DNA of 32,000 bases from Pyrodictium delaneyi (GCF_001412615.1 NZ_CP013011.1:690001-722000); one strand, 5' to 3'. Numbered from the stretch's first letter, positions 2,672 to 29,242 are shown. Notes: a model not told the origin generated them from the sequence alone. Numbers and translations: made by a program.

Positions 2672-2998
2672 GTGGAGCGGGAGGAGCTGGTGCTCCGCAG
2701 GATAGAGTACCTGGAGAGGCTGGCTGAGAAGCTGGAGAGGCTCGCCGCGGTGCTCTTCGCCGCCGCGGTGGCCTCCCCGGTGCTGGAGAAGCTGACGGGG
2801 CTCCGCCTAGCCGCTGCGGTGGCGATGGTGGCGGTGGCGCTCGCCGTGCTCCTGGCTAGCGTTTATACGCTACGGATGGAGTCTGAGAGGCTCTGGGGGA
2901 AGCTGTTGGGCCGGGACCCGCGGCTGCTAGCGTTCCCGTGGGGCGTGCTAGCGCTGCTGATAGCGACCATAGGGCTGCTCCTAGCCCTCGCCCACTAG
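2672..2998 (+). CDS. small membrane protein (about 3 TM)
   Basis: 108-aa ORF. A coiled N-terminus is followed by hydrophobic stretches AAVLFAAAVASPVL, AAAVAMVAVALAVLLASVY and WGVLALLIATIGLLLAL. Confidence 0.6.
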   Translation: MEREELVLRRIEYLERLAEKLERLAAVLFAAAVASPVLEKLTGLRLAAAVAMVAVALAVLLASVYTLRMESERLWGKLLGRDPRLLAFPWGVLALLIATIGLLLALAH

Positions 2999-3201
2999 CT
3001 TTCTTCTCCCCGGCTGCGGGGTATGGGCTCCAGGGTTATCCTCCCGGTCTCCTCGTCGACTAGGACCCGGTAGGCCTCGACCCGCTCTGCGATGCGCTCC
3101 GGGATGTCTATCTTCACGTAGTATGAGGGGTACCGCCGCCCCCTCACGGTCTTGGTTGTCCGCACTACCCTGGCCAGGCGCTCCCTCCTCTCCCCCGGCA
3201 A
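2995..3201 (-). CDS. small AbrB/SpoVT-like DNA-binding protein (putative)
   Basis: 68-aa ORF with TTG start. YYVKIDIPERIAERV...RVLVDEETGRITLEP resembles a swapped-hairpin AbrB-type fold. It is divergent from the gene at 3311, with operator motifs in between. Confidence 0.55.
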   Translation of the reverse strand: MPGERRERLARVVRTTKTVRGRRYPSYYVKIDIPERIAERVEAYRVLVDEETGRITLEPIPRSRGEES

Positions 3202-3242: not shown

Positions 3243-3294
3243 TGTAGCGTACGCCACAAGCCTTTTATACCCCCGCCCTGTAGCGTAAGCTACA
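3243..3294. promoter_or_regulatory. divergent promoter with two copies of the 16-bp operator
   Basis: Degenerate copy TGTAGCGTACGCCACA (3243-3258), TATA TTTTATA (3263-3269), perfect copy TGTAGCGTAAGCTACA (3279-3294). Confidence 0.65.
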
Positions 3295-3310: not shown

Positions 3311-3514
3311 GTGAAGGCCCCCGAGACCCTCCGGGAGCTAGTAGCCCGGTTCACCGGGCTAGGCTTCAGGGTGGTTTTCATGGACCGGGCGCCCATGGAT
3401 GCTGTGCTGTACGGGGCTGGCTGGGGCGTCTACGTATTCGAGAAGGAGGGGTGGCTGTGGCAGCTAGTACCCAGCCCCTCCAAGAAGCTAGCAGTAGTCT
3501 CCAGGCTAGGGTGA
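3311..3514 (+). CDS. hypothetical protein (67 aa)
   Basis: GTG start 17 nt after the operator motif. Its stop overlaps the next start (GTGA at 3511-3514). Confidence 0.55.
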   Translation: MKAPETLRELVARFTGLGFRVVFMDRAPMDAVLYGAGWGVYVFEKEGWLWQLVPSPSKKLAVVSRLG

Positions 3515-4264: not shown

Positions 4265-7200
4265 GTGCCTCTCAGGTGGTTCCGCGTCAGGCCCCTCCTG
4301 GGCTCCAGGGAGCGGGTTCTGCCGGTCCTCGGCCTCGGCTTCGTGCTGGAGTATCACAGGAGCGAGGACCGGCTCGAGATATACTACCTGTCCGAGGCGT
4401 CTCGGGTCAGCTTCAACAGGGTGGCCGCCGCCGAGGAGAAGGCTCCGCCCGAGCTGCCTCCGTACGGCTACGAGGTTAGAATACGCGGCAAGGAGTGGTG
4501 GCTCCCCGTAGAGGTCCGGGACTGGCACGGGCTCCTAGAGGCTATGGGGCCGGGGACCGTTGTCCAGGTCGTGGCCCTCCGCGACTACAAGCTGAAGGAG
4601 AAGCTCTTGAAGAAGGCTGAGAGCCTAAAGGAGGGGAGAGAGTACACGGCTGGCCGTGTCCTAGCGAGCGTGCTTCTCGGGGAGTCCGTGTTCAATGTTA
4701 AGCGGGACGAGCAGCTGGCGCAGGAGCTCCGCCGCCGGGCGCAGAGCGTCTGGCAGCTGGCCTTCCGCGTCTACGCCGGAAGCGAGGAGAAGGCCCGGGA
4801 GCTGGCCGAGCAGCTCATAGCCCGATTGCTCGTGGATGATGAGAAGCACTGGCGGCTGGAACGCATCAAGGTCAAGAAGAGCAAGGACATGGCTAGGCTG
4901 AGGGACCCGCTGCGGCTGAAGAAGGGCGACACCTCGCGGCCCTGGCTCCCCGAGGACCGGCTCAAGGCGGTACTAGAGCTGCCTGAGCCCTCTAGCCCGC
5001 TCCCCGTGGACTTCGCCCACCGGGCTGGGCTTCCCTCGATAGCGCCGCGGCGCAGCGAGATAAGGATAGGGGTGCTCCATGACGGCCGGGAGGTCCGTAT
5101 CGACGTAGACGACCTGTACCGGCACGCCTACGTCATAGGCAGTACTGGTGCGGGGAAGTCCACGTTCCTCCTCAACCTTGTTTTGCGGCTATGGGAGACC
5201 GGGCGCGGCGCCGTATTCGTTATCGATCCTCATGGCGACCTTGTGCGGGATATACTGGAGCGTGTCCCCAGCCTCGAGCGGGTATACTACCTGGATGCGC
5301 GGCGCCGCGACTTCGCCGTAAACCCGCTCGTGCCGCCGCCTATACCCGATAGGGAGCTCGCTAGGGCTGTGGCTGTCGACAACACCGTGAAGGTGATGGA
5401 GAAGGTGCTGCGGCTCCCGGAGACCGCTGTAAACGTGAAGTTCATCGTCCGTACGCTGCTGCAGGTTCTCTATGCCCGCGGCGGGGTGCCGACCTTCGAG
5501 CAGCTCTTCGAGGCTGTGCTAGCCCTCTACGGGGGCGAGCTGGAGCTAGACCTGGGGGACGAGAGGCTCGACCGTGTCTGGAGGGCGCAGGTGGAGCTTC
5601 TCCGGAACATCCAGGAGCAGAGCTTCCTCTCAACCCTAGTGAGGCTCCAGCCCTTCGCTACGCATCCCTTGCTCCGTGACCTTACCAGCGAGGATACGTT
5701 GCCGGTGGAGAGGCTGGTCGAGGAGCGCGCCCTGGTACTGTTCAATGTGCCCAAGGACCTGGGTGAGGAGTTCTCGGAGCTGCTCACCAGCCTCATTGTT
5801 ATGAAGCTGTGGTTCTTCGCCGCCGCCCGCCGCGAGGCGCGGGAGAGGGGCATGGATGTGCCTATGGTCCCTGTGTTCCTTGTTGTCGACGAGTTTCAGA
5901 ACCTGTCGGGCCTCCCGGTGCTGGAGACCATGTTGTCGGAGGCGAGGAAGTATGGCTTACACGTCATTGCTGCGCATCAGCATACCCGGCAGCTTCCGGA
6001 GGAGCTGCTGCGGAGCCTGTTCAGCAACACAGCGTTGAAGGTTGTGTTTAGCGTCGAGGGCCCGGACGTGGACCGGCTGAAGAGCATTGACCCGAGGTTC
6101 GCGGAGGCGCTGGAGGAGCTGCTGCCCTCGCTGGCTACTGGCATGGCTGTTGTGCGTATACGCGGGGGCCCTGGCGAGGAGCGGTATCCGCCTATCCTCG
6201 TCCGGACCGACCCGGCGCCTCCCAAGAGGAGGGAGCTCGAGGAGGCCCGTGGCCGGCTCCCCCGGTTCCCGCCGCGGGGCGCTGTGAGCCGGCCGGTGGA
6301 GGAGCTGCTCAACCCCGTGCTCCGCTACCTGCCGAGGGAGCGGCTCAGCCCCGTCGAGCAGCTGGTGCTCTACCATGTCTACGTGTTGTCGAGGGGGTCT
6401 AGCGACGGCTGGGCCCAGTGGAGCGATGTGCGGATGCGGCTGGGGCTGCCGCCTAAGCGCGCCGAGGCTGCCCGGGACCAGCTGGCTGCCCGGGGCCTCG
6501 TGGAGGTGCGGCGGGAGGGGAACAGGCTGCTGCTCCGCTACCGTGGCGGCCTCTTCGCCGGCCTCCGCCAGGTGGCTCCCAGCGACGAGGGCTGGAGGCT
6601 CGCGGTCGCGGCGGTGCTCTACTACCTGGAGCACGGCTACTATGTGGCCCCGGCGCGGCAGGACCCGGGGCTGAGCGCTAAGCCGGACCTGGTCGCCATA
6701 CCCTTCGACAAGGCCGGCCTGGCGCTGAGGTACAGCCAGGCCGTCGCCGTGGAAGTCGAAACTTGTAACGAATTGTCGACGCACCCCGAGCAGGTGGCGC
6801 GTAACATCGAGAAGCATGGTTCTACGCCGTTCGTTGAGGTCCACCTGTGGTTCCCCAAGAAGTGCCTGGCCGATATGCAGCGGCCCTTCGGCGCCGCCCG
6901 GAAGCCTAAGCCGGTGAAGCTGTTCCCGGTCTCGTTCACTGGCCGCCGCGCCGTGCTGCTGGAGGCGGCGCTCGAGGAGATCAGCGGCGGTGGCGGCGCC
7001 GCTTCGCCGGCCGCCCCGGGTGCCGGCGTGGAGGCTGTCGAGGGCGCAGAGGCCGGTGATGTGGGGGAGGTCCTCGGGGAGGCTCCGGGTGGCGAAGAGG
7101 CTGGGCCCGTCGAGGAGGCTGGGGAGGGATCTCCGGGGCTGCATGGAGGGCCGGCGGGGAGCCTCAAGGAGCCCGTGGAGGATCATGCAGGGGCCGGGGA

Positions 7201-7915
7201 GGCTGGTGCCGGCGTCGAGGGGGAGCACGAGGAGCCCCAGCGGGGGCAGCCCAGCGTGGAGGATCTCCGGGGGCTGCTCGAGGCCCAGGCTAGGATGTTG
7301 GCGGCGCTCGGGGAGACGGTTCGGGGGCTCGCTGAGGCGCAGGCGCGGCAGACCGAGACGCTCCAGAAGCTGGCGGAGAACATGGACCGGGTAACGCAGC
7401 TCCTAGCGGGCCTCATGGAGAGGCTCGACCGGCTAGAGGCGGCAGCCCAGCAGCATGGAGCCACGCCGGAGACACGGGGGTCAGCGGCACAGCCCCACGG
7501 GCCCAGGCCAGCCAGGGAGGAGAGAGGCGCAACCCAGCCCAGAGAGACGCCGGAAACCCCGAGAGGAGAGGCACAGGAAACACCGCCGGAGCCCCAGGGC
7601 CTCGAATACGACCCCGAGCAGGACTGCTACTGGATCACGCTAGACCAGCCCCCAGGCCACAGAGTATGCCTACCCGGCGACAAAGCCCGCGAAGCACAGG
7701 AGTTCCGCAGACGCGGCTACAGGCTAGTAGCCAGAGGAAACTGGCTCTACGCCAGACGCACCGGATACACACGACCACTAACACAGCTACCCCAGAACCA
7801 GCAACCCAGCCCAACCCCAGAAACCAGACACACAGGCCAACCCACAGCCCAGACACACCCCTATAGAGTGAAACCGGGCGCCGCGCGCGGCGGCGACGAT
7901 CCACCCCCGGCCTAG
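4265..7915 (+). CDS. TraG/VirD4-like conjugative coupling ATPase (FtsK/HerA superfamily) with long C-terminal extension
   Basis: 1216-aa ORF. Walker A GSTGAGKST (5138-5164) is followed by VFVIDPHGD. Walker B VFLVVDEFQ lies at 5873-5899, then AAHQHTRQL. Downstream are a wHTH-like segment, a PDLVAI...VAVEVET nuclease-like motif (about 6680-6775), a Gly/Ala/Glu-rich tract, a coiled coil and a Pro/Thr/Gln-rich tail. Confidence 0.9.
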   Translation: MPLRWFRVRPLLGSRERVLPVLGLGFVLEYHRSEDRLEIYYLSEASRVSFNRVAAAEEKAPPELPPYGYEVRIRGKEWWLPVEVRDWHGLLEAMGPGTVVQVVALRDYKLKEKLLKKAESLKEGREYTAGRVLASVLLGESVFNVKRDEQLAQELRRRAQSVWQLAFRVYAGSEEKARELAEQLIARLLVDDEKHWRLERIKVKKSKDMARLRDPLRLKKGDTSRPWLPEDRLKAVLELPEPSSPLPVDFAHRAGLPSIAPRRSEIRIGVLHDGREVRIDVDDLYRHAYVIGSTGAGKSTFLLNLVLRLWETGRGAVFVIDPHGDLVRDILERVPSLERVYYLDARRRDFAVNPLVPPPIPDRELARAVAVDNTVKVMEKVLRLPETAVNVKFIVRTLLQVLYARGGVPTFEQLFEAVLALYGGELELDLGDERLDRVWRAQVELLRNIQEQSFLSTLVRLQPFATHPLLRDLTSEDTLPVERLVEERALVLFNVPKDLGEEFSELLTSLIVMKLWFFAAARREARERGMDVPMVPVFLVVDEFQNLSGLPVLETMLSEARKYGLHVIAAHQHTRQLPEELLRSLFSNTALKVVFSVEGPDVDRLKSIDPRFAEALEELLPSLATGMAVVRIRGGPGEERYPPILVRTDPAPPKRRELEEARGRLPRFPPRGAVSRPVEELLNPVLRYLPRERLSPVEQLVLYHVYVLSRGSSDGWAQWSDVRMRLGLPPKRAEAARDQLAARGLVEVRREGNRLLLRYRGGLFAGLRQVAPSDEGWRLAVAAVLYYLEHGYYVAPARQDPGLSAKPDLVAIPFDKAGLALRYSQAVAVEVETCNELSTHPEQVARNIEKHGSTPFVEVHLWFPKKCLADMQRPFGAARKPKPVKLFPVSFTGRRAVLLEAALEEISGGGGAASPAAPGAGVEAVEGAEAGDVGEVLGEAPGGEEAGPVEEAGEGSPGLHGGPAGSLKEPVEDHAGAGEAGAGVEGEHEEPQRGQPSVEDLRGLLEAQARMLAALGETVRGLAEAQARQTETLQKLAENMDRVTQLLAGLMERLDRLEAAAQQHGATPETRGSAAQPHGPRPAREERGATQPRETPETPRGEAQETPPEPQGLEYDPEQDCYWITLDQPPGHRVCLPGDKAREAQEFRRRGYRLVARGNWLYARRTGYTRPLTQLPQNQQPSPTPETRHTGQPTAQTHPYRVKPGAARGGDDPPPA

Positions 7916-9154: not shown

Positions 9155-9262
9155 TGCAAGTACCCACCCCTGCTATAGAAATATCCCCATCAAATTCTCT
9201 CAATTCCGTAAAGCTTTTAAATAGAGGCTAAGTACCCACCCCTGGAGGGGTGGGTACTTGCA
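9155..9262 (+). promoter_or_regulatory. promoter with 30-bp perfect palindrome and a third copy of the half-site
   Basis: TGCAAGTACCCACCCCT lies at 9155-9171 and the TATA TTTTAAATA near 9214-9223. AAGTACCCACCCCT-GG-AGGGGTGGGTACTT spans 9230-9259 and runs into the TTG start at 9258. Confidence 0.7.
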
Positions 9263-11057
9263 GATCCACTCCCTATCCGAAGACGAGGCATTTAGCCGGA
9301 TAGTACGCTCTCCACGTGCACTTGAAGCCTTAATAGTTATAGCAGCAAAGAACAAGGCTGGCATAAACGCCACAGTAAAGGATCTTATAGAATGGCTTGG
9401 TGTCAACGATAACCGTGCATGGAAGATACTCTCTAAACTCATTTCACTAGGCGTTGTTGTTCATGATGAAAACTATAAGCTATCACTATCAGACCTCGGA
9501 TGGAGAGTAATTTCGAGAGTAGAGAATGTCTTAGAGCAGCAAGTCGATATTGATATCTCCTCATTGATAAAAACGGTGCGCGAGAAACATATATTCTACA
9601 AGGTACGCAGTGTCGCAAAAATACGTGACTCACCCCTTGAGGCGTTCAACGGCGATATAGCTCCATCCCCTAAAATCATCCTCCAAAAAGCACTTTGGAA
9701 GGGTTTACCCTTAATTCGGCGTTTCTCGGGAGCTATATACATAGTTACAGATTATGAACGTGTAAAGGCTAGTGGCATGCTCGACAATAACAGTATGGCT
9801 AGAGCTGAAAGGGCAGAGCTTTCAGGAATTTTGAGAGTAACGCGTCTATTTGCTCTCTCGCTTCCACCCAACCTTTTAGGCGAACCAATGGACATCAATA
9901 AACTAATAGAGGAAGTTGGAAGAAAATGGGCTTTTGTCGAGAGCCTCGCAAGGCATAGAAGCGTAAGATACCGTTACCTCGAACAAGTAGACGCATTGTA
10001 TCTTGCCAGGTTTGATAAGAACCGTAAGATACTCTATCCACTCCATGAAACAGGCCTTGAAGCATATAAGTGGTTAACAAAGAAGCTTGACTCTGTAATG
10101 TCTTCAATACCAGATTTCTATCAGCCCATAGCAGTAGCACTTTACAGCATAGCCTATAATAAAGTTCTCACGCGCGACGAAATCCTAGAAGGCATAGGTG
10201 ACCCCATACTAGAGCGTGCACGGGAAGAGGCGGGTACGAAAACGTATACAGAGGTAATGGAGAGAGTATTCATGCGTAGACTACTTCGGTACCGCATAGT
10301 AGAGCTTATAGGACCGGACAGGTTTGTTGTCCCCAAAGCTATCTTCCATAGGCTTGTCCTTCTACGCGGTACCGAGTTGAGTGACGTAATTAGGAGCGTT
10401 AACCAGTTATTTGAAAGATCTTCACGAATCATGAGAACGGTACTTGAATACATAGTGACCAATGTGAGCGTATCGCCGGGAGATCTAGCACGTTCACTTA
10501 AGATAAGTGAAGAAGCCGCAGTAGGCATTATACGGGTTTTAAGCGACCATGGCCTCCTTATACCTTCAAGTTATCGGTATCTATGGGTTGGAGTTGCACC
10601 AGCAAAATTCATAGAAGAAGCAATTGATAGGGACCTATACATCTACCTGTACGATATTACAAAAAGGTATGATACCGTTCTCGCGCAAAAAGGTATAGAT
10701 CTTCTGGAAATACTTGAAAGATTGCTGCGAAGCGGTGTCGTGGATCTCTTCGAGGAAGCAGGCGACAGGCGTACGTTAAGTATACTATCGAAGTACTTCT
10801 TTAGGCTAGAAGAGATAGGGCTTATCAACCTTGAAGAAGGATTTATAGTTAGGCCGGCGTCGGACAATGCTGTTAAGCTACTAAAGGTGTTTACAACTAC
10901 GTATGTACTTCCGAGAGGTCTTGACATACTAGGCGACCGTGTAGTAGCTGAGTCTAGCCTGATAAGCTCTCTGCGTGAATTTAGAGAAACCATAGCTGAA
11001 GTGCTACGTGAGACTATATCGAGAAGCAGGTATGAAGCCCTTGACTCCTCTAGCTGA
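9258..11057 (+). CDS. large multi-winged-helix DNA-binding protein (599 aa), AT-rich foreign-looking gene
   Basis: Uninterrupted 599-aa ORF with TTG start. At least three wHTH-like segments: VKDLIEWLGVNDNRAWKILSKLISLGVV, PGDLARSLKISEEAAVGIIRVLSDHGLL and TLSILSKYFFRLEEIGLI. GC is about 37-47 % in counted lines versus about 63 % in the flanks. Confidence 0.8.
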   Translation: MQIHSLSEDEAFSRIVRSPRALEALIVIAAKNKAGINATVKDLIEWLGVNDNRAWKILSKLISLGVVVHDENYKLSLSDLGWRVISRVENVLEQQVDIDISSLIKTVREKHIFYKVRSVAKIRDSPLEAFNGDIAPSPKIILQKALWKGLPLIRRFSGAIYIVTDYERVKASGMLDNNSMARAERAELSGILRVTRLFALSLPPNLLGEPMDINKLIEEVGRKWAFVESLARHRSVRYRYLEQVDALYLARFDKNRKILYPLHETGLEAYKWLTKKLDSVMSSIPDFYQPIAVALYSIAYNKVLTRDEILEGIGDPILERAREEAGTKTYTEVMERVFMRRLLRYRIVELIGPDRFVVPKAIFHRLVLLRGTELSDVIRSVNQLFERSSRIMRTVLEYIVTNVSVSPGDLARSLKISEEAAVGIIRVLSDHGLLIPSSYRYLWVGVAPAKFIEEAIDRDLYIYLYDITKRYDTVLAQKGIDLLEILERLLRSGVVDLFEEAGDRRTLSILSKYFFRLEEIGLINLEEGFIVRPASDNAVKLLKVFTTTYVLPRGLDILGDRVVAESSLISSLREFRETIAEVLRETISRSRYEALDSSS

Positions 11058-11611: not shown

Positions 11612-12130
11612 ATGCCAAGGAGGCAATGGTGGTTCGCGTTGGAGGCCGTAGCCAAGAGGGCGGCTGGGGAGAGCGAGCTGGAGGAGATACTGGGGCCTGT
11701 TGAGCCCCCGAAGCCCCTAGAGTGGGTCCCCCTGGTGGCGGCCCTGGGTGTGGAGAGGAAGCGTGTCAGGCTACGCAGCGGCGAGGAGAGGGTCTACACG
11801 GGCTACCGGGTAAGGATACCCAAGGAGGTGGTGGAGCGCCTAGGCCTCCGGGGGGAGGCCACGATACTCCTCCAGGCTGCCAGGCCCCGGTGGTACCACC
11901 TCCTAGACTACCGGGAGGAGCCCCTACGCAGCCGCTTCAAGGCGATTAAGAAGCCCTGGGTAAAGGCCGAGATATGCATGCTAGGCCACGCCCCAGAGGA
12001 GCTCTGCAAGGAGTACCGCACAGTGACCGTGATAGCCAGCGAGGAGGAGCTCAGGCGCCTCGGCCTGGAGCCCGGCAAGCCCGTGACCCTCAGGGAGCTG
12101 CTGGAGCGGGCTAGGAGCGTGGAGGGCTAG
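11612..12130 (+). CDS. hypothetical protein with AbrB/SpoVT-like segment
   Basis: 172-aa ORF. YRVRIPKEVVERLGLRGEATILL resembles the AbrB/MazE-type DNA-binding motif. Confidence 0.65.
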   Translation: MPRRQWWFALEAVAKRAAGESELEEILGPVEPPKPLEWVPLVAALGVERKRVRLRSGEERVYTGYRVRIPKEVVERLGLRGEATILLQAARPRWYHLLDYREEPLRSRFKAIKKPWVKAEICMLGHAPEELCKEYRTVTVIASEEELRRLGLEPGKPVTLRELLERARSVEG

Positions 12131-14225: not shown

Positions 14226-15566
14226 TCATTGGTTTGAGGGGCGGGGATAGGCCCCGCCCCTCGCCCCCGGTCTTGGGGGTGTTACCCCTACCCCGAGGCG
14301 GTGGGGGTGTGTGAGGGCCTCGGGGCTCGGGGTTATGGTTCGCTTTGTGCCCTTGGCTAGTATGTTGTAGGCTGCAGCCATGTCGGCGTTCATTGCTAGC
14401 CTGCGGTGGGGGCAGATGTAGAGGCCTCTGTGCACACGTGCACGGGGGTGTACGGCGCCGCATAGGGGGCAGCGCTGGCTAGTGTATGCCTCGTCTACCT
14501 CCACAACCTCTATCCCGTACTCCCATGCTACCTCCTTTAGGCGGCGGAGGAGGAGCCCGTAGGTCCAGACATGGACCCGCTCAAAGTTCAGCTTCCCGTT
14601 GCCGTCCCCACGCCGGGCTATGCCCCTCGGGTAGCCCACGTATATCCTCGCGACGCCGCGGCTGTAGAGCTCCTCCATTGCACGTCTCACGGCAGCGTCT
14701 ATGTAGGCTCTTATCCTAGCCCTCCACCGGCGGTACATTAGGCGTAGCCTGCGGCTCGTACTCCCCGCGCCATCGGCTCTGTCGAGAACACTCTTGTACC
14801 TGGCTATGCGGCGCTGCCAGTAGAAGCTCTCAGCCTTCAGGGGACGCCCATTCACGAGGAAGCCTTCGCCGTTCTCAACGTAGACCGCCAAGAGGTTGTC
14901 TACTCCAAGGTCTACCCCCGCCTCCAGGCTCCCGCGGGGCTTCATGGGTACGCGGACCCAGCCCCTTCCATGTATCAGCTTCTCCTCCACAGTGTACGAT
15001 ATCGCTATGTACCAGCGCCTCCTATCGTGGTCGTACCATATCTCGGCGCCCCTTTGCCTGCCCCGGACATGGATTAACCCGCGGTACCTGACACGCACCA
15101 CGCCGGCAACGCCTAGGCGCCTTATCTCGACAATACCTCTCTCCGTGTCTACGCGGTACTGGTCCTGCCTGAGGGCCAGCCATAGCCTCCTACGCCGCCG
15201 GCTCCTCTTACGGTAGCCCGGCGGGCTGGCCTTCGCTATGTGTGGTGGCAGCCTCCCCTTCTTCTTCAATGCTAGGAGCCGGAAGAAGCTTCTCCACGCG
15301 GTATCGTTCTTAGCTATAATTGCCTGTGTGGTGGCGCTGCCCAAGAGCCTGTTGTACATGTAGTAGAACTCCTTGTAGGTTTCGTAGAGTTTTTGCTGGG
15401 TCAGCTTTCCCTCGAAGAAGAGGCGTCTACGGCGGTAGTTGAGCTCGTTCCAGAGCTTCGACGCTAGCTCGCATACTAGCCTTAGCTTCTCCTCTTCCTC
15501 CGGCCCGGGCTCCAGGCGGAGCACCACTGTCCTAATGACGCCGTTTGCCCGCCTCCCCCACGGCAC
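14226..15566 (-). CDS. tnpB: TnpB (OrfB) RNA-guided nuclease of IS200/IS605 family
   Basis: 446 aa. C-terminus TSQRCPLCGAVHPRARVHRGLYICPHRRLAMNADMAAAYNI is the Zn-ribbon/RuvC-III signature. It begins 1 nt after the tnpA stop. Confidence 0.93.
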   Translation of the reverse strand: MPWGRRANGVIRTVVLRLEPGPEEEEKLRLVCELASKLWNELNYRRRRLFFEGKLTQQKLYETYKEFYYMYNRLLGSATTQAIIAKNDTAWRSFFRLLALKKKGRLPPHIAKASPPGYRKRSRRRRRLWLALRQDQYRVDTERGIVEIRRLGVAGVVRVRYRGLIHVRGRQRGAEIWYDHDRRRWYIAISYTVEEKLIHGRGWVRVPMKPRGSLEAGVDLGVDNLLAVYVENGEGFLVNGRPLKAESFYWQRRIARYKSVLDRADGAGSTSRRLRLMYRRWRARIRAYIDAAVRRAMEELYSRGVARIYVGYPRGIARRGDGNGKLNFERVHVWTYGLLLRRLKEVAWEYGIEVVEVDEAYTSQRCPLCGAVHPRARVHRGLYICPHRRLAMNADMAAAYNILAKGTKRTITPSPEALTHPHRLGVGVTPPRPGARGGAYPRPSNQ

Positions 15567-15567
15567 T

Positions 15568-15981
15568 CTAGCAGCACCTCTTCTGCCCCGCTATGTAGCG
15601 CCCCACTATGGCGGCGTCGTGGCCGACGCTTGCCACGTAGTAGCCTGGCGCCCACAGGCTGCCGCGTGAAGCCCCGCTCTCCAGCCAGGGCAGCGCCCTG
15701 AGCAGCATGTAGCCCGTATAGCCCTTCAACACGTTGGCTACGCGGGAGGGGCTGGGCCGAGGAGGGCACTGCACAAGGACATGCACATGGTCTATGGGGG
15801 CGGCCCACTCTACTAGCCTGCACCCAGCCCTCTCAGCCGCCTCACGGAGCAGCCTACCCAGCATCCTCTCCACAGGCTTCGAGAGGATACACCGCCGGTA
15901 CTTCGGCACCCAGACGTAGTGGTATAGGAGCACACTCACGCTATGCCGGCGCCTCACCGGCTCCGGGCCGCCCCAGCCCAA
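15568..15981 (-). CDS. tnpA: IS200-type Y1 (HUH) transposase TnpA
   Basis: 137 aa. Carries LLYHYVWVPKYRR, the HUH motif DHVHVLV, and the C-terminal GYYVASVG tyrosine region. Confidence 0.93.
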   Translation of the reverse strand: MGWGGPEPVRRRHSVSVLLYHYVWVPKYRRCILSKPVERMLGRLLREAAERAGCRLVEWAAPIDHVHVLVQCPPRPSPSRVANVLKGYTGYMLLRALPWLESGASRGSLWAPGYYVASVGHDAAIVGRYIAGQKRCC

Positions 15982-21508: not shown

Positions 21509-23410
21509 CTAGACCTCTACCTCCTCGAGGCCTGCTGGCTCGGGGGCGGTGTGCGCTGGTTTCTCGCTGAACGGTGTTGTAGAGAAGGCTTCGAGCTCGT
21601 CCTTGCTTATCATTACCTCTACTCTTAGCCTGTAGCCGCCGGCGCGGAGGAGCGCGTAGCCTCTTGGAGCGTCTAGGAGGAAGCTCTGCTCGTTCTCGCT
21701 CAGCGGTATAACCTTGACAAGCTCGTCGAGGGCTGCCGCGTCGAGCCCTAGCAGTATCTGCACCTGGGCCTGCGTCACCACAGTCTTCCCATGGGGGTTC
21801 TCGAGGACGTCCCCGGGCTTCTGGCTGATGAACACGAAGTGTATCCCGCGCTTCCTGCCACGCCTAGCAATGTCAGCCATAAGCGACGCCAGGCTCTCGT
21901 ACTGCATGAAGAGCCATCCCTCGTCCACCACTAGGATGCTCCGCCTGCCTAGAAGCGCCGAGAGAAGCGACGAAACCAGGCTCGCCACCAGGGCCTTTGT
22001 ATCCTTGTCCTGTATCCCGCTTAGGTCGAATACCGCGCCGTGCCGCAGCCCCCGGGGCGGCTCGCCCTCGTATATCCACGCGTCGGCGCCAACCACGTTC
22101 TCCATGTAGTTCTTCAGCTTCTGCGAGGCCTTGTCGTACACCTCGAAGATGCTAGTAGAGGAGCGCACTAGCCTGGTAAGCTCGCCCTCCAGCTCCCGGG
22201 GTATACCGTAGACGTCACGGAGAATCGCTACAGCCTGCTTGGTGGTGATTAGCTCGCTCTGGGCGAGCCGGACCGGGTCCAGCCCCGCGCCCTTCCCATG
22301 TAGCCTGACTACAGCGGCGCCGGGTGCTAGGCGGTCTACGATCCTCGCATACTCCCCCTCGGGGTCCACTATGTAGGGCGGGTACGGGTAGCGCTCCCTT
22401 AGCCGAGAGAGGTAGACCTTGGTGAGCATGCTCTTGCCTTTGCCGCTCTGCCCTATAATGACCCAGTTGTAGTTATCGTAGGCGAACGGGTTCACAATAA
22501 CCGGCGTGCCAGTGTCAACGTTCCTACCTAGTAAGACACCGTCCGGATGAACTAGCTCCTCGCTAACAAAGGGGTAGAAAGCTGCCAAGCTGAACGTGTC
22601 CGTCACGAAGCGTGGCACGAGCCAGTGCCTCGACAACAGCGTGAATGACCTGCGTAGCTCGTAGAGGGGTGCTTGTAGGCTCCCGGGGGCGTAGAGCTCT
22701 ATCCTCCTAGAGGCCGCCAGGCTCTCAAGGTCATAGCATTTCTCGACTAGCTCGTGTTCACTCCTGGCACGGACAACTAGTATCGCAGAGAACCGGAAGA
22801 GGGCCGCAGCCTCAGCCTGCAGCTGCTCTAATGCCCGTAGCTTTGCTATCCTCCTCTGCAGCTCGGCGTTCGAGGGATCATTCGCAAGGAGTGCCTCGAG
22901 CCGCCTTATGAGGCCTGGCAGCTTCTTGCTGGCCTCCCGAGGCTCAATACGGTTAAAGAACAAGTGGACCTCTGACGCAATACCGTAGAACTCTCCTACC
23001 ACGGCTTCAGGCAGGAACGCTGGCAGCCCTGTTACCACGTAGCTCCTCGCCAGCGAACCGTCCTCGAGGATAACAGCAGGCATAGAGACAGTACGGGTCT
23101 TCGCTTTCCCCTCCTCATCCTCGCTATAGACTGGTACCTCTCCACGCGCTATAGTCCGCCCCCTAGGCCTCGGCCTCGGTGGAGGCTCAGCGGGCTCTGC
23201 CTGGAACCCGAAGCTAGAGGGGTCTACGGGGCTCTTCGCGAAGAGGCTGAACCGGTAGAACCTGAAGCCCCACGCCTCCTCCTCTAGGAGGAAGAACGAT
23301 ACAAGGAGCCACGGGCTGGCGTTTAGCAGGGACATCCACCGGGCTAGGAGCTTAGCTCTCTCCCGCTCGCCTAGGGCGGCGAATGGCTCGGGTATGATAT
23401 GGTACCACAA
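21509..23410 (-). CDS. VirB4/TrbE/CedB-like type IV secretion ATPase
   Basis: 633 aa. Walker A GQSGKGKS (22430-22453), Walker B ILVVDEGW (21914-21937), then HFVFISQKP. Size and motif spacing resemble the TrbE homologues of crenarchaeal conjugative plasmids. Confidence 0.92.
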   Translation of the reverse strand: MWYHIIPEPFAALGERERAKLLARWMSLLNASPWLLVSFFLLEEEAWGFRFYRFSLFAKSPVDPSSFGFQAEPAEPPPRPRPRGRTIARGEVPVYSEDEEGKAKTRTVSMPAVILEDGSLARSYVVTGLPAFLPEAVVGEFYGIASEVHLFFNRIEPREASKKLPGLIRRLEALLANDPSNAELQRRIAKLRALEQLQAEAAALFRFSAILVVRARSEHELVEKCYDLESLAASRRIELYAPGSLQAPLYELRRSFTLLSRHWLVPRFVTDTFSLAAFYPFVSEELVHPDGVLLGRNVDTGTPVIVNPFAYDNYNWVIIGQSGKGKSMLTKVYLSRLRERYPYPPYIVDPEGEYARIVDRLAPGAAVVRLHGKGAGLDPVRLAQSELITTKQAVAILRDVYGIPRELEGELTRLVRSSTSIFEVYDKASQKLKNYMENVVGADAWIYEGEPPRGLRHGAVFDLSGIQDKDTKALVASLVSSLLSALLGRRSILVVDEGWLFMQYESLASLMADIARRGRKRGIHFVFISQKPGDVLENPHGKTVVTQAQVQILLGLDAAALDELVKVIPLSENEQSFLLDAPRGYALLRAGGYRLRVEVMISKDELEAFSTTPFSEKPAHTAPEPAGLEEVEV

Positions 23411-25967: not shown

Positions 25968-28010
25968 CTAGCGGGGGAGGGGCAGCGGGGCCATAGCAGC
26001 CAGTGCTGCAAGCAGCACGGCCAACAGCGCGTAGAGGGTGTTGCGCAGTGTCTGGTCGCTGGCCTTGGCCGCGAGCAGCCCCATAGCTAGCCCCGCTAGC
26101 CCGGCGAGGGCTAGGCTCCACTGGTAGGCTACGTCGAAGGCCGCGAGGACCTCCCGGGGCAGCGCCATGGGGCCCTTGGAGAGCACAGCCGTCTCCAGGT
26201 AGCGGCGGGCTATCGGCGCCAGGAAGCGCAGAGAGGCCACGGCGCCAGCGGGCGTCAGCACCGCCATGAGCTGCAGCATCCTCAGCCTCTCGCGGGCCTC
26301 CCTCCATGCCTGCAAGTGCATCTCTACGAGCCTTACAAGCCTCTCCAAGGCCTCCGGCGACGCGGCGCCATACCTTGACATGAGGTGTAGCGTCGAGAGC
26401 ACGTAGCGGAGGAGCCACGACTGGGCCTCGACGCGGCCACGGGCTGCTGAGCGCAGCCTGAGCGCCAGCACACCGCCCACGTGCTCGGCAGCCAGCTCCA
26501 GCGCCCTAGGGACCGGGTGCCCCATCTTCACGTACTCTACCACAATCCTCAGAGCGTCTGCCAGCCTAGCCTCCTCGGCCCTCTTCACGTTGTACTGTGT
26601 GAGCCACATGGCGCCGTAGGCGCCGGCGGCGAGCGCTAGGCTCGCAAACACCACGCCAGCGCCGGGCTCGAGGAAGCCTAGGAATGCCATGAGTGGCGGG
26701 ATGCTCGCAGCTATGGCTGCCGCAGCCACGCCAGCGGCGTCCCGGTACTTCTCGCGGAGCCGAGGCTGCACTGCGTTCAGCATGAGGTAGAATGCTGTGG
26801 CTAGCAGCGGGAGGCCAGCAGTCATCGCGGAGAGCATCGCCACTACAGCGTGCATGTTCAAGACCAAGGCGAAGGCGGCGAACAAACCGACGCCGAGGAA
26901 CACGACAACGAGCGCCATAACGGCGTTTGCGCGCTCCGCGTACTCCACCAGCCTGACGCGCAGAGCCTCCATCGCCCTCCAGACAGCGTCGCCGAGGTAG
27001 GCTGCCACGTCCCCACCACTGCTCTTCACAGCGTCCACGAACCTGTAGAAGTCCCTCAACACCTTGCTAGGCTGCATGGCAGCTACGAGGCCTAGTCCGC
27101 GGCGGGCATAGACCCCGTCGAGCCATGTGCCGGGAAAGAGCTCCCTGTGGCGCGCCGCCTCTATCAGCGCAGCCTCGGGCTCGGCGCCCCCGCCCGAGAC
27201 CATGAGCCACATCCAGAACGCCACGTAGGGGTGCTCCTCCTCCGCGAGCCTGGCTCTCTCGGCTAGCTTCGCCCTGGCGTAGGACTTTATCCCGAGAACC
27301 GTTAGCAGCGGCAGAGGGGCTGCGGCTACGAGTATCCACGGCGAGAAGAGCAGCGCCAGGGGTACCAGTGCCAGGACAGCCACAGCGGCCAGCAGTATAC
27401 TACTAGATACCAGGTATACTGCCTCACGCCGGGTGAAGCCAGCGCCGGATAGCCTTAGGTCCTCGCTGACACGCAGCTTCTGGTCGAGCCGCTCAGCCAG
27501 CCTATCCATGGCCGGAAAGGTGCTCCGGGCAACCACGTACCACGGCGGCCGTCTCTTACCTACCCTCACTACGGGGTGGTAGAGAGACCGGCCTAAGAGC
27601 CATACACCGGCGGCGAGGGCCCCGGCGCCCGGCAGCAGGCCGCTCTCGACAGGCAGCATGCCCAGCGCTGTGGAGGCTATGAGCACCGTGGCCTCGGCTA
27701 TGACTAGCACGGCAGCGATGAATGTGTAGGGGTTGCTGAGACGTATCCTCCAGAGCCTGTAGGGCGCGTGGCGGCGGCGCTCCTCCATGACAGTTATGAG
27801 TCTCCATAGTGCCTCGCTGAGGAGCCGCCCGGTCAGCCTGACGTAAAGCCATAGTGCTATAGCCAGCCCAGCCAGCAGCGAGAGAGCCACAACAGCGAGA
27901 AGGATGCCGCGCGTGGGGACCTGTGGGCGGAGGGCGAGCCAGAGGGCGAACCCTAGGGCTGTGAGGCTCACGACGGCGTACGCCAGCTCCTCGGCTCGGC
28001 CCCGCTTCAC
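25968..28010 (-). CDS. polytopic pilus-assembly platform protein (TadC/FlaJ/UpsF-like)
   Basis: The GTG at 28008-28010 overlaps the ATPase TGA. It encodes 680 aa with many TM helices and cytoplasmic helical segments, immediately downstream of the secretion ATPase. The family call rests on position and topology. Confidence 0.8.
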   Translation of the reverse strand: MKRGRAEELAYAVVSLTALGFALWLALRPQVPTRGILLAVVALSLLAGLAIALWLYVRLTGRLLSEALWRLITVMEERRRHAPYRLWRIRLSNPYTFIAAVLVIAEATVLIASTALGMLPVESGLLPGAGALAAGVWLLGRSLYHPVVRVGKRRPPWYVVARSTFPAMDRLAERLDQKLRVSEDLRLSGAGFTRREAVYLVSSSILLAAVAVLALVPLALLFSPWILVAAAPLPLLTVLGIKSYARAKLAERARLAEEEHPYVAFWMWLMVSGGGAEPEAALIEAARHRELFPGTWLDGVYARRGLGLVAAMQPSKVLRDFYRFVDAVKSSGGDVAAYLGDAVWRAMEALRVRLVEYAERANAVMALVVVFLGVGLFAAFALVLNMHAVVAMLSAMTAGLPLLATAFYLMLNAVQPRLREKYRDAAGVAAAAIAASIPPLMAFLGFLEPGAGVVFASLALAAGAYGAMWLTQYNVKRAEEARLADALRIVVEYVKMGHPVPRALELAAEHVGGVLALRLRSAARGRVEAQSWLLRYVLSTLHLMSRYGAASPEALERLVRLVEMHLQAWREARERLRMLQLMAVLTPAGAVASLRFLAPIARRYLETAVLSKGPMALPREVLAAFDVAYQWSLALAGLAGLAMGLLAAKASDQTLRNTLYALLAVLLAALAAMAPLPLPR

Positions 28011-29242
28011 CCAGCCTCCCCGCTCTCCTGGCCGGACGGGGAGACGCAGCGCCGCGGCTCGCCGCGCTCCTCCCACGTATCGGTGTCGCTGCTCCACTCC
28101 CATAGCAGCCTGAACTCTCCCTCCCAGCGCTCCCAGAGCCCGAGCATCCTCCGGGCCCTGCCTCCCTCGGGCAGCTCGACGATGCCGAGCAGTGCCACGG
28201 CGTGGAGGTTGTCTAGCAGCTCCTTGGGGACTCCTAGCAGCGTGAGCCTGGTTGTTAGCTCCTCGATGTTGCGGGCGTGGAATGTGGCGGCGCTGGCGAC
28301 CCCTAGGGAGGCGGCGTGGAAGAGGTACACTACCTCGCGGAACCGTGCCTCCGCGACCGCGACCACATGCGGCCGGAGCCGGAGGGCGTGCTTCAGCAGG
28401 TGCTCCATGGTCACGGTTATCCTCTCGGGCTCGGCTAGGCTCCTTGGCTCCCTTGTGTGGAAGCTGCTCCAGTTACGCCTCCGGAGCCGGACCTCCGGGG
28501 TCTCCTCGACAACCACCACCTTCCAGTCGGGGTCCGGCAGGCTGTCGAGCAGCGCGGCCATGAGCGTGGTCTTCCCCGCGCCCGGCGGCCCTATCACGAA
28601 CACCATGCCGCCGCCGAGGAGTAGGCAGCGCAGGTACTCGGCGGCCTCCCTGGGGAGGAGCCGGAGCTCCACGAGCCGGTCGAGGCTGTAGGGCTGGCTG
28701 GGGAACAGCCTGACAGTCAGGCTAGGCCCCGTGGAGGCCACCAGCCCCAGGGCCGCGGCTACCCGGGCCCGCCCGTAGTCGAACTCCGCGATGGGGTAGG
28801 CCGGGTTGATGCTGGTCCCCGCGCGTACGCTAAGCTCCCGTATAACGTCCTCCAGCGCCTCCCTCTCCAGGACCACGCTGGACTCCAGGTAGACGCCGGG
28901 CACCTCCCTGTGGACCACGTACACGGGCCCAGGCCGCGGCACCGACACCTCCTCGAGGCCCTCGTCCAGCACCATGGGGTAGAGGGGGCCCCAGCCGCTC
29001 ATGAGGCGCCGGACATGGTACTCTATCGCCGTGGCCTCGCGCTGGTAGACCTCCGCGTAGCCCAAGTGATCGGCGGCCGTCGCGATATTGTCGCTCTCGG
29101 GCTCCAGGCCCCGGAGCGATAGCCACTCCTCGATGGCCTTGACGGCCTCAGCAGCCTCTGGTGACAGCGCCGGCTCCTCGACGACGTAGCTCCGGGTCCT
29201 TGGGTCCACCATGTACCTGACAGGCCCTATCGTGTACTCCAC
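28007..29242 (-). CDS. type II/IV secretion-family ATPase (PilB/FlaI/VirB11/UpsE-like)
   Basis: 411 aa. Walker A GPPGAGKTT (28565-28591). Other motifs: VVVVEETPE, RLRPHVVAVAE, ATFHA. Confidence 0.92.
   Translation of the reverse strand: MEYTIGPVRYMVDPRTRSYVVEEPALSPEAAEAVKAIEEWLSLRGLEPESDNIATAADHLGYAEVYQREATAIEYHVRRLMSGWGPLYPMVLDEGLEEVSVPRPGPVYVVHREVPGVYLESSVVLEREALEDVIRELSVRAGTSINPAYPIAEFDYGRARVAAALGLVASTGPSLTVRLFPSQPYSLDRLVELRLLPREAAEYLRCLLLGGGMVFVIGPPGAGKTTLMAALLDSLPDPDWKVVVVEETPEVRLRRRNWSSFHTREPRSLAEPERITVTMEHLLKHALRLRPHVVAVAEARFREVVYLFHAASLGVASAATFHARNIEELTTRLTLLGVPKELLDNLHAVALLGIVELPEGGRARRMLGLWERWEGEFRLLWEWSSDTDTWEERGEPRRCVSPSGQESGEAG

What the first reader, a model, noticed from the sequence alone, without database searches (positions are those of the whole stretch)
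4265..7915. TraG/VirD4-like ATPase fused to wHTH, a nuclease-like motif and a long disordered tail: candidate relaxase substitute
The P-loop core (GSTGAGKST, DPHGD, VVDEFQNL) occupies roughly residues 280-660. Downstream are a winged-helix-like segment (VEQLVLYHVYVLSRGSSDGWAQWSDVRMRLGLPPKRAEAARDQLAARGLVEV) and then YYLEHGYYVAP...KPDLVAIPFDK...AVAVEVETCNE. The latter has the D...ExE/K spacing of PD-(D/E)xK nucleases. No relaxase-like gene is visible in the window, and archaeal conjugative plasmids are known to lack recognisable relaxases. A coupling ATPase carrying its own DNA-binding and nuclease module could process the transferred DNA.
Basis: inference. Interest (0 to 1): 0.7.

Follow-up and report, generated by a model that had tools for sequence, protein, structure and literature searches.

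The report
Archaeal conjugation ATPase with built-in nuclease-like domain
The gene encodes the DNA-pumping "coupling" ATPase of an integrated archaeal conjugative element, and it carries a DNA-binding domain plus a restriction-enzyme-like domain found in every sequenced archaeal conjugative plasmid and in no bacterial one, which makes it a concrete, testable candidate for the missing archaeal relaxase.

Summary
ORF 4265-7915 (+, 1216 aa) is identical to Pyrodictium delaneyi Pyrde_0708. It is a VirD4/TraG-type ATPase (three T4CP Pfam models score above their cut-offs).

Downstream of the ATPase lie a winged helix (about residues 696-760) and a 126-residue domain (766-891). AlphaFold2 models this domain at pLDDT 95.9 with an alpha-beta-beta-beta-alpha-beta core. 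Its Foldseek hits are weak but are almost all PD-(D/E)xK nucleases: PaqCI, Hjc, Mrr, VRR-NUC.

Across 98 representatives clustered at 50% identity or less, D808 and E830 are invariant, E832 is kept in 96/98 and K850 in 92/98.

The module matches only 17 of 72,556 plasmid records. All 17 are archaeal; those I identified by name are known conjugative plasmids (pNOB8, pING1, pKEF9, pARN4, pTC1, pAH1, pT33-3). Bacterial T4CP homologues lack it. No Pfam, NCBIfam or PDB sequence family covers it.

Bacterial MOBC relaxases have the same winged-helix plus PD-(D/E)xK layout, but profile-profile comparison finds no homology (probability 3%).

Nuclease activity and a relaxase-like role are inferred, not shown. 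Recent reviews still list the archaeal relaxase as unknown.

The parts
4265..7915 (+). Complete ORF (1216 aa): the VirD4/TraG-type coupling ATPase of an integrated conjugative element. Identical to P. delaneyi Pyrde_0708.
4265..5029 (+). N-terminal family-specific domain (about residues 1-255). No transmembrane helix is predicted anywhere in the protein.
   Evidence: Conserved in archaeal homologues. The highest Kyte-Doolittle 19-residue mean is 1.53 and lies inside the ATPase core.
5048..6214 (+). FtsK/HerA-superfamily P-loop ATPase core with a TrwB-type insertion (about residues 262-650). Walker A GSTGAGKST is at 5138-5164 and Walker B VVDEFQNL at 5882-5905.
   Evidence: Pfam TrwB_AAD_bind, TraG-D_C, T4SS-DNA_transf and DUF87 all score above their cut-offs. 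HerA 4d2i and TrwB 1e9r are hit by sequence.
6350..6544 (+). Winged helix-turn-helix (about residues 696-760).
   Evidence: The AF2 model has pLDDT 93.4, with helices at 696-710, 719-726 and 730-742 and a beta-hairpin at 746-759. Foldseek hits are MarR/ArsR regulators and pNOB8 AspA with probability about 1.0. Weak profile hits to ArsR/GntR regulators.
6560..6937 (+). PD-(D/E)xK-fold (restriction-endonuclease-like) domain, residues 766-891. Putative active site: E775 (6587), D808 (6686), E830 (6752), E832 (6758), K850 (6812).
   Evidence: AF2 pLDDT 95.9 with an alpha-beta-beta-beta-alpha-beta core. Foldseek hits are PaqCI, SPARDA nuclease, Hjc and NotI, and Mrr, VRR-NUC, Hjc and MmcB. No Pfam or PDB sequence family matches.
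6962..7264 (+). Acidic Gly/Ala/Pro/Glu-rich low-complexity linker (about residues 900-1000).
   Evidence: Composition 76-82% GAPEQST. Not conserved, and absent in P0008-P0012.
7265..7450 (+). Coiled-coil-like segment (about residues 1001-1062).
   Evidence: Weak DUF16 and KxDL hits. Partly alignable with P0002 and P0003.
7607..7765 (+). Short conserved C-terminal motif (about residues 1115-1167, DCYWITLD...GYRL...WLYARR). Possible partner-docking module.
   Evidence: Shared with P0002 and P0003 only. By analogy, the Sulfolobus plasmid tails behave as a swappable cassette.
21509..23410 (-). VirB4-type conjugative ATPase of the same element.
   Evidence: NCBIfam conju_CD1110 6.4e-30 and VirB4_CagE 1e-15. 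Pfam AAA_10 and P-loop_TraG. Also linked to the T4CP gene in loci L004 and L009.
25968..29242 (-). Type-IV-pilus-like module: a UpsF/TadC-like membrane platform protein (25968-28103) and a FlaI/TadA/VirB11-like ATPase (28007-29242).
   Evidence: NCBIfam UpsF 2.3e-28 and FlaI 1.7e-42. Pfam T2SSE. The ATPase is linked to the T4CP gene in L007, L008, L010 and L011.

Best explanation
The ORF encodes the coupling ATPase (VirD4/TraG type) of an integrated conjugative element of Pyrodictium delaneyi. A site-recognition domain (winged helix) and a metal-dependent PD-(D/E)xK-type nuclease domain are fused to the C-terminus of its motor.

Proposed mechanism:
1. The soluble hexameric FtsK/HerA-type motor docks at the VirB4 and pilus-like membrane machinery encoded nearby.
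2. The winged helices bind a specific site on the element.
3. The adjacent nuclease domains nick or cut the DNA in cis, through the D808/E830/E832 metal site with E775 and K850.
4. The motor then pumps the free end out of the donor.

The coupling protein would thus also do the job that a separate relaxase does in bacteria, but by hydrolysis and without a covalent protein-DNA intermediate, as reported for MOBC relaxases.

Shown here: the domain architecture, the fold, the residue conservation, the restriction of the module to archaeal conjugative elements, the linkage to VirB4 and VirB11-like genes, and the absence of a detectable relaxase.

Inferred: catalytic activity, site specificity, nick versus double-strand cut, and the role in initiating transfer.
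For: - T4CP signature above Pfam cut-offs. The same signature is found in pNOB8 ORF1025 and the pT33-3 1370-aa protein.
- High-confidence models of the winged helix plus an alpha-beta-beta-beta-alpha-beta domain.
- The named Foldseek hits are almost exclusively PD-(D/E)xK nucleases. PDB: PaqCI prob 0.97 and TM 0.52, SPARDA nuclease 0.98, Hjc 0.89, NotI, I-Ssp6803I. BFVD: best E 7.4e-4, with Mrr, REase, VRR-NUC, Hjc and MmcB.
- D808 and E830 are kept in 98/98, E832 in 96/98 and K850 in 92/98 diverse representatives. They are invariant with pNOB8, pING1, pKEF9, pARN4 and pT33-3.
- tblastn of the module against 72,556 plasmids hits only 17 records, all archaeal (Sulfolobus, Saccharolobus, Acidianus, Thermococcus).
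- Bacterial T4CP homologues lack the domain.
- In all 84 proteins where this family's ATPase was detected, it lies N-terminal to the module.
- A split form has the module as a separate gene whose start overlaps the stop of the ATPase gene.
- The gene is linked to VirB4 and VirB11-like genes here and in related loci.
- No relaxase family was found in the window.
- Reviews state that no archaeal relaxase is known, and that VirB4 and VirD4 mutants of pT33-3 lose conjugation.
- There is a precedent: MOBC relaxases are winged helix plus PD-(D/E)xK and form no covalent intermediate.
Against: - No biochemical data exist.
- Foldseek E-values are weak (best 2.6e-2 in PDB, 7.4e-4 in BFVD), so the fold call rests on topology plus the consistency of the hits.
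- The canonical Lys of (D/E)xK is replaced by Glu. The conserved K850 sits on the following helix, and I could not inspect the model coordinates to confirm that it reaches the acidic cluster.
- There is no detectable homology to MOBC relaxases (hhalign probability 3%).
- No oriT-like site could be identified near the gene.
- A hydrolytic cut leaves unexplained how the DNA is recircularised in the recipient.
- Some family members have a degenerate Walker A yet keep the module, and some carry the module with no ATPase. The module can therefore act outside a pumping ATPase.
Confidence: 0.5

Rival explanations
1. The domain is an active nuclease that works during transfer, but not as an initiator at a specific site. 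One option is that it degrades or resects the non-transferred strand while the motor translocates, as NurA does with HerA, to produce single-stranded DNA for the pilus. Another is that it resolves junctions or multimers, as Hjc does.
For: - The ATPase core's best solved-structure sequence match is HerA (4d2i, 4.2e-8).
- Hjc resolvases are among the best fold matches.
- HerA-NurA has been proposed as the generator of single-stranded DNA for archaeal DNA exchange.
- In Thermus ICETh1 a HerA-like translocase needs a NurA-like nuclease and a restriction endonuclease for DNA donation.
Against: - The winged helix immediately upstream, conserved with the nuclease as one module, suggests site recognition rather than processive degradation.
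- PD-(D/E)xK is not the NurA (RNase H-like) fold.
- There is nothing to distinguish nicking from resection in silico.
Confidence: 0.2
2. The domain is a catalytically dead PD-(D/E)xK fold used only for DNA binding or oligomerisation. The protein would then be a sequence-directed double-stranded DNA pump like Streptomyces TraB or FtsK, whose C-terminal winged helices read clt or KOPS sites, with no cutting involved.
For: - The canonical catalytic Lys is missing from the ExK position (the motif is ExE).
- Transfer of double-stranded DNA has been suggested for Sulfolobus plasmids.
- A winged helix C-terminal to an FtsK-type motor mirrors TraB.
Against: - Invariance of three acidic residues plus a Lys, Gln, Asn and His over more than 90 representatives at 50% identity or less is what a metal-dependent active site looks like, not a binding surface.
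- ExE variants are catalytically active in BamHI (D94/E111/E113; my own knowledge, not tested here).
- The experimentally active MOBC/TraX family also shows invariant D...ExE...K.
Confidence: 0.15
3. The nuclease has nothing to do with moving the element's own DNA. It would be an offensive or defensive activity carried by the element: for example degradation of host or competitor DNA, exclusion, or an ATPase-nuclease defence system.
For: - HerA-type ATPases paired with nucleases are common in defence systems. The ATPase core gives generic PADLOC HerA and mad8 hits.
- A paper title reports dramatic cellular DNA changes after pKEF9 conjugation (PMC4872121, listed; not read).
Against: - The PADLOC hits cover only the generic ATPase core, and the VirB4-like neighbour gives them equally.
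- The module is confined to the coupling protein of self-transmissible archaeal plasmids and ICE-like loci.
- According to a review, VirD4-type genes of pT33-3 are required for conjugation.
Confidence: 0.07

Closest known systems
Archaeal conjugative-plasmid TraG/VirD4 homologues (pNOB8 ORF1025, pING1, pKEF9, pARN4, pTC1 ORF1019, pAH1, pT33-3 WP_285519946)
   Same: Same family and same full architecture: N-domain, T4CP ATPase, winged helix, nuclease-like domain, variable tail. Module identity is 27-39% with E-values down to 2e-40. The putative active-site residues are invariant. The Pfam signature is the same.
   Different: The window copy is chromosomal (an integrated element in Pyrodictium) and has a different, longer low-complexity tail. 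In the databases and papers I could read, these proteins are annotated only as ATPase, DUF87 or 'T4SS DNA-binding domain'. No nuclease domain is mentioned.
MOBC relaxases (TraX of pAD1, MobC of CloDF13; Pfam Replic_Relax PF13814)
   Same: The same two-domain logic: a winged helix that binds oriT plus a PD-(D/E)xK catalytic domain, with no covalent DNA intermediate. The TraX-like family alignment shows invariant D151...E169xE171...K175, which is also an ExE-type site.
   Different: These are separate small proteins (about 260 aa), not fused to the T4CP, and they are bacterial. There is no detectable sequence or profile homology to the archaeal module (hhalign probability 3%; no PF13814 hit).
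Bacterial type IV coupling proteins (TrwB, VirD4, TraD, TraG)
   Same: Homologous ATPase core with a TrwB-type insertion. Genetic linkage to VirB4.
   Different: The bacterial proteins have an N-terminal membrane anchor and rely on a separate relaxase. The window protein has no predicted TM helix and carries the winged-helix plus nuclease module, which the bacterial homologues retrieved here lack.
Streptomyces TraB and FtsK (motor plus C-terminal winged helix)
   Same: A hexameric FtsK/HerA-superfamily DNA pump with a C-terminal DNA-recognition winged helix that selects the DNA to be moved (for TraB).
   Different: TraB and FtsK have no nuclease domain and move uncut double-stranded DNA. The window protein's ATPase core matches the T4CP and HerA models well above their cut-offs, but matches FtsK_SpoIIIE only weakly and below its cut-off (19.6 bits against 24).
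HerA-NurA, and Thermus ICETh1 TdtA with a NurA-like nuclease and a restriction endonuclease
   Same: A HerA-type translocase working together with nucleases to prepare and push DNA. This gives relaxase-independent DNA donation in Thermus.
   Different: There the nucleases are separate proteins, and NurA has a different fold. Here a PD-(D/E)xK domain is fused in cis, together with a winged helix.
Viral terminase large subunits
   Same: A single polypeptide combines a DNA-translocating ATPase with a nuclease that creates the DNA end to be pumped (my own knowledge; an analogy only).
   Different: The ATPase lineage is different and the nuclease is RNase H-like. Terminases package DNA into capsids rather than transferring it between cells. 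This was not tested here.

Membership tests
Type IV coupling protein (VirD4/TraG/TrwB) | FtsK/HerA-type P-loop ATPase matching the T4CP profiles | tested here: met
   TrwB_AAD_bind 40.9 bits (cut-off 20.5), TraG-D_C 33.8 (cut-off 22), T4SS-DNA_transf 24.3 (cut-off 20.1). The Walker A and B motifs are intact.
Type IV coupling protein (VirD4/TraG/TrwB) | N-terminal transmembrane anchor | tested here: not met
   The highest 19-residue Kyte-Doolittle mean is 1.53 and lies inside the ATPase core. There is no N-terminal hydrophobic segment. This was a crude method; no dedicated TM predictor was available.
Type IV coupling protein (VirD4/TraG/TrwB) | Encoded with a VirB4-type ATPase in a transfer locus | tested here: met
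   VirB4-like gene at 21509-23410. The same linkage is seen in L004 and L009.
Type IV coupling protein (VirD4/TraG/TrwB) | Required for conjugative transfer | not testable with these tools
   A review reports that VirB4- and VirD4-like gene mutants of pT33-3 lose conjugation. The pT33-3 homologue P0090 carries the same module.
PD-(D/E)xK (restriction-endonuclease-like) nuclease superfamily | Alpha-beta-beta-beta-alpha-beta core fold | tested here: met
   AF2 pLDDT 95.9, with H9-24, E27-31, E44-50, E62-66, H69-88 and E93-99. The named fold matches are nearly all PD-(D/E)xK nucleases, though with weak E-values.
PD-(D/E)xK (restriction-endonuclease-like) nuclease superfamily | Asp at the start of beta-2 and (D/E)xK on beta-3 | tested here: inconclusive
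   D808 precedes beta-2, and E830 and E832 lie at the end of beta-3. All are (near-)invariant. However, the third position is Glu, not Lys. A conserved K850 lies on the next helix. The spatial arrangement could not be checked because no coordinates were available.
PD-(D/E)xK (restriction-endonuclease-like) nuclease superfamily | Metal-dependent phosphodiester hydrolysis | not testable with these tools
   Needs biochemistry.
MOBC relaxases (TraX/MobC, PF13814) | Sequence or profile homology to the family | tested here: not met
   No PF13814 hit. hhalign of A2 and A3 against a 21-sequence TraX-like alignment gives probability 3.3-3.4%.
MOBC relaxases (TraX/MobC, PF13814) | Winged helix plus PD-(D/E)xK catalytic domain architecture | tested here: met
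   for the window protein. The TraX architecture is as described in the review.
HUH, HD, Rep_trans and Tyr-recombinase relaxases (MOBF/P/Q/V/H/T/M) | Match to any relaxase profile in the ORF or its neighbours | tested here: not met
   No relaxase family was found among the Pfam or NCBIfam hits for the ORF or about 30 neighbouring ORFs. The only HUH protein is the IS200 TnpA at 15568-15981.
Ced DNA-import ATPases (CedB, CedD) | Score above the NCBIfam equivalog cut-off | tested here: not met
   CedD 34 bits against a cut-off of 600. CedB 15.6 bits against a cut-off of 700.
HerA repair helicase | Score above the NCBIfam equivalog cut-off | tested here: not met
   HerA_Thermprot 32.4 bits against a cut-off of 800. 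The similarity covers only the region around Walker A.

The most novel reading that the evidence does not exclude
Archaeal conjugation has no separate relaxase because the coupling ATPase is itself the DNA-processing enzyme. Its conserved winged helix selects the element and its PD-(D/E)xK domain cuts it, giving a terminase-like 'recognise, cut and pump' mechanism. This mechanism would be shared by conjugative elements of Thermoproteota (Sulfolobales, Desulfurococcales, Pyrodictiaceae), Nitrososphaerota and Euryarchaeota (Thermococcales, Archaeoglobales), and would define a previously unrecognised nuclease family.
Probability: 0.4. Interest if true: 0.9.

Novelty: new variant of a known kind. 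Interest (0 to 1): 0.78.

Why it matters
How archaeal conjugative plasmids and integrated elements prepare their DNA for transfer has been open since pNOB8 was described in the 1990s. Reviews from 2023 and 2025 still say that no relaxase is known, and ask what brings the DNA to the transfer machinery.

This analysis points to a specific, universally conserved domain with a specific set of residues (equivalents of E775, D808, E830, E832 and K850). The domain sits in a protein that a review reports as required for conjugation of pT33-3, for which a genetic system exists. The question therefore becomes directly testable with point mutants and a nicking assay.

If confirmed, it would add a new solution to the initiation of conjugation: coupling protein and DNA-processing enzyme in one polypeptide. 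It would also give a sequence marker for finding archaeal conjugative elements, which MOB-suite typing currently labels 'non-mobilizable' or 'MOB_Unknown'. Finally, it would define a new PD-(D/E)xK family absent from Pfam and NCBIfam.

Tried and rejected
- **Foldseek on the two-domain model.** It returned only winged-helix regulators. I had to remodel the nuclease-like domain alone.
- **Sequence and profile searches of PDB and Pfam for the C-terminal domain.** There were no significant hits. Single-member weak hits to AHJR-like (0.013) and MTES_1575 REase (0.055) are suggestive only.
- **Homology to MOBC relaxases.** I built a TraX-like alignment from the pTEF1 'replication-relaxation' protein. 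hhalign gave 3% probability, so I rejected membership.
- **Search for an oriT- or clt-like repeat array near the gene.** I found only short two-copy repeats and palindromes, and nothing I could tie to the winged helix.
- **A conserved AbrB/MazE-like partner downstream.** This was suggested by L012 and L013 and by window 11612-12130. Pairwise comparisons showed no similarity, so I dropped it.
- **Defence-system reading.** PADLOC hits only the generic ATPase core.
- **Ced, Ted or HerA membership.** Scores are far below the cut-offs.
- **Phage collection.** No match.
- **Papers I could not read.** Catchpole 2023 (pT33-3), Iyer 2004 (FtsK-HerA superfamily) and Francia 2013 (TraX) are not held. I therefore cannot exclude that the domain was noted there. 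Full-text searches of the held library found no description of it.
- **Model coordinates.** They are not exposed, so active-site geometry was not checked.

Full report
**1. The observation.**
The ORF listing gives an ORF at exactly 4265..7915 on the + strand, GTG start, 1216 aa. It is 100% identical to 'hypothetical protein Pyrde_0708' of Pyrodictium delaneyi, on a 2.02-Mb contig. The window is therefore chromosomal DNA of a hyperthermophilic crenarchaeon. The N-terminus aligns with that of the closest homologues, so the start codon is reasonable.

**2. The ATPase.**
- Pfam places residues about 262-650 in the type IV coupling protein / HerA group. TrwB_AAD_bind, TraG-D_C, T4SS-DNA_transf and DUF87 all score above their gathering cut-offs.
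- The best NCBIfam hit is a VirD4-like conjugal transfer family. The CedB, CedD and HerA equivalogs score far below their cut-offs.
- By sequence, the nearest solved structures are HerA (4d2i) and, weakly, TrwB.
- No transmembrane helix is predicted. Unlike bacterial T4CPs, this one appears to be soluble.

**3. The C-terminal module.**
- An alignment of the 13 closest archaeal homologues shows that residues about 680-890 are as well conserved as the ATPase, whereas everything after about 890 is variable or missing.
- AlphaFold2 on residues 672-891 gave pLDDT 93.4. The model has a winged helix-turn-helix followed by an alpha-beta-beta-beta-alpha-beta-alpha-beta domain.
- Foldseek with both domains together found only winged-helix regulators (MarR, ArsR, and the pNOB8 centromere-binding protein AspA).
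- I therefore modelled residues 766-891 alone, using a 41-sequence alignment. This gave pLDDT 95.9.
- Against the PDB the E-values are weak (best 2.6e-2). However, the top hits with high probability are PD-(D/E)xK nucleases: the type IIS enzyme PaqCI (TM 0.52), the SPARDA nuclease domain, Archaeoglobus Hjc, NotI and I-Ssp6803I.
- Against predicted viral structures the best E-value is 7.4e-4. The named hits are Mrr-type and other restriction endonucleases, VRR-NUC proteins, archaeal-virus Holliday junction resolvases and an MmcB-like protein.
- In the model, D808 sits immediately before beta-2, E830 and E832 lie at the end of beta-3, E775 opens helix 1 and K850 lies on the helix after beta-3. 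This is the canonical PD-(D/E)xK layout, except that the third motif position is Glu rather than Lys.
- No Pfam model, NCBIfam model or PDB sequence matches this domain. By sequence it is an undescribed family.

**4. Conservation.**
An exhaustive HMM search of 1.84 billion representative proteins with the module found 136 proteins at E <= 1e-3 and 75 at E <= 1e-10. Among 98 representatives that contain the whole domain:

| Residue | Conserved |
|---|---|
| D808 | 98/98 |
| E830 | 98/98 |
| E832 | 96/98 |
| K850 | 92/98 |
| W862 | 91/98 |
| Y787 | 88/98 |
| N847 | 85/98 |
| Q843 | 83/98 |
| E775 | 66/98, plus 13 Asp |

**5. What family this is.**
- tblastn of the module against 72,556 plasmid records hit 17 records, all archaeal: Sulfolobus 12, Saccharolobus 3, Acidianus 1, Thermococcus 1. 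No bacterial plasmid was hit.
- The hits I identified by name or organism line are pNOB8, pING1, pKEF9, pARN4, pTC1 (S. tengchongensis), pAH1 (A. hospitalis) and the 103-kb plasmid of T. nautili strain 33-3. There was nothing in the phage collection.
- The matched genes are the 1025-1044-aa 'TraG/VirD4' ORFs of the Sulfolobus plasmids and the 1370-aa protein of the Thermococcus nautili 33-3 plasmid. That plasmid is pT33-3, the one euryarchaeal plasmid shown to conjugate. These proteins carry the same T4CP Pfam signature.
- In a direct alignment with pNOB8, pING1, pKEF9, pARN4 and pT33-3, the following residues are invariant: E775, G776, Q799, P807, D808, E830, E832, N835, E836, H840, E842, Q843, R846, N847 and K850.
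- Cluster look-ups add Metallosphaera, Stygiolobus, Pyrococcus kukulkanii, an Archaeoglobales MAG and Nitrososphaerota MAGs. The genome scan adds Pyrodictiaceae, Acidilobaceae and Desulfurococcaceae MAGs.
- The 63 bacterial T4CP homologues retrieved with the full protein have no trace of the domain.
- Of 142 proteins with the domain, 84 have this family's ATPase, and it is always N-terminal to the module. Most of the rest are short: fragments or stand-alone forms.
- One stand-alone form is a 187-aa gene whose start overlaps the stop of an 860-aa TrwB-like ATPase gene. This is a split version of the same architecture.

**6. Context.**
- The window also encodes a VirB4-type ATPase (21509-23410), a FlaI/TadA/VirB11-like ATPase (28007-29242) and a UpsF/TadC-like membrane protein (25968-28103).
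- This is the gene set described for archaeal integrative-conjugative elements.
- The VirB4-like or VirB11-like genes are also next to the T4CP gene in six related loci.
- No relaxase family was detected in about 30 ORFs. The only HUH protein is the transposase of an IS200/IS605 insertion.

**7. Mechanism.**
What is shown is a fusion of three elements: an FtsK/HerA-type DNA motor, a winged helix, and a PD-(D/E)xK-fold domain with an invariant acidic triad. The fusion is confined to archaeal conjugative elements that lack a relaxase.

The most economical reading is that the coupling protein processes the DNA itself. The winged helix selects a site, the nuclease domain nicks or cuts it, and the motor pumps the end.

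The bacterial MOBC relaxases provide a precedent. TraX of pAD1 is a winged helix plus a PD-(D/E)xK catalytic domain and forms no covalent intermediate. The TraX-like family also shows an invariant D...ExE...K pattern. However, profile-profile comparison gives no evidence of homology (3% probability). The archaeal module 'works like' MOBC at most; it is not a member.

The alternatives are listed in the rival explanations: a resection or resolution nuclease in the HerA-NurA / ICETh1 style; a catalytically dead DNA-binding module, giving a TraB-like double-stranded DNA pump; and a function unrelated to transfer. None is excluded without biochemistry.

**8. Novelty.**
The protein family has been known since pNOB8, and the ATPase is annotated. 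In every annotation and paper I could read, the C-terminal region is not described as a nuclease. Six full-text searches found no such description.

Reviews from 2023 and 2025 state that archaeal relaxases are unknown. Three key subscription papers could not be read, so prior mention cannot be ruled out.

I rate this a new variant of known kinds (T4CP, PD-(D/E)xK nuclease, MOBC-like logic). Its interest is high because it turns an old open question into a point-mutant experiment.

Noticed in passing
L016/L017/L018/L014 (pING1, pKEF9, pARN4, pNOB8 T4CP genes), last ~110 codons and the antisense gene downstream: The tail of the Sulfolobus coupling proteins is a recombining cassette. pING1 and pARN4 are 20-45% identical over the body but 90-100% identical over the last ~110 residues. 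pING1 and pNOB8 are 82-91% identical over the body but only 28-41% over the tail. The small antisense gene just downstream is the same protein (WP_011114787.1) in pING1, pKEF9 and pARN4. The terminal domain may be a partner-specific docking module.
   Followed up: partly
P0112, P0137, P0138, P0140 (940-1002 aa representatives): These family members keep the N-terminal domain and the winged-helix plus nuclease-like module, but they have a degenerate Walker A (for example 'HCLITGINYDLL') and no Pfam ATPase hit. They may be ATPase-dead paralogues that retain the nuclease-like site.
   Followed up: partly
P0132, P0153, P0161 (about 500 aa representatives): In these proteins the module is fused to N-terminal hydrophobic helices and a long coiled-coil-like region, with no ATPase.
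   Followed up: no
L013:6597-8591: A stand-alone 196-aa winged-helix plus nuclease-like protein sits directly after a tyrosine-integrase gene and before a MazE/AbrB-like gene, with no ATPase nearby. It may be a decayed element or an independent use of the module.
   Followed up: no
window 9258-11057 (and repeats at 9158-9172, 9230-9259): A 599-aa ORF with several winged-helix-like segments has 44-48% GC inside a roughly 64% GC region. It is 91% identical at the protein level to a Pyrodictiaceae MAG locus. It is preceded by a duplicated 15-mer and a perfect 14-bp palindrome, AAGTACCCACCCCT/AGGGGTGGGTACTT. It looks like recently acquired cargo.
   Followed up: partly
window 14226-15981 (-): An IS200/IS605 insertion: Y1 transposase TnpA (15568-15981) and a TnpB/Cas12f-like protein (14226-15566). 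pNOB8 also carries a TnpB gene just upstream of its T4CP gene.
   Followed up: no
window 3243-3258 and 3279-3294: Two copies of a 16-bp palindrome (TGTAGCGTACGCCACA / TGTAGCGTAAGCTACA) lie 36 bp apart, in the gap between the divergent small ORFs 2995-3201 (-) and 3311-3514 (+). They are operator-like, and both ORFs are conserved in the Pyrodictiaceae MAG locus L002.
   Followed up: no
PLSDB typing of pARN4, pT33-3, pNOB8, pING1, pKEF9: MOB-suite typing labels the conjugative pT33-3 and pARN4 as 'non-mobilizable' and the others as 'relaxase MOB_Unknown'. Current plasmid-mobility classifiers have no marker for archaeal DNA processing.
   Followed up: no
window 16868-19081, 20047-21507, 29655-30944: Large ORFs (737, 486 and 429 aa) within the transfer region have no Pfam, NCBIfam or PADLOC match. 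The 737-aa ORF has weak relatives next to the T4CP gene in L002 and L004.
   Followed up: no
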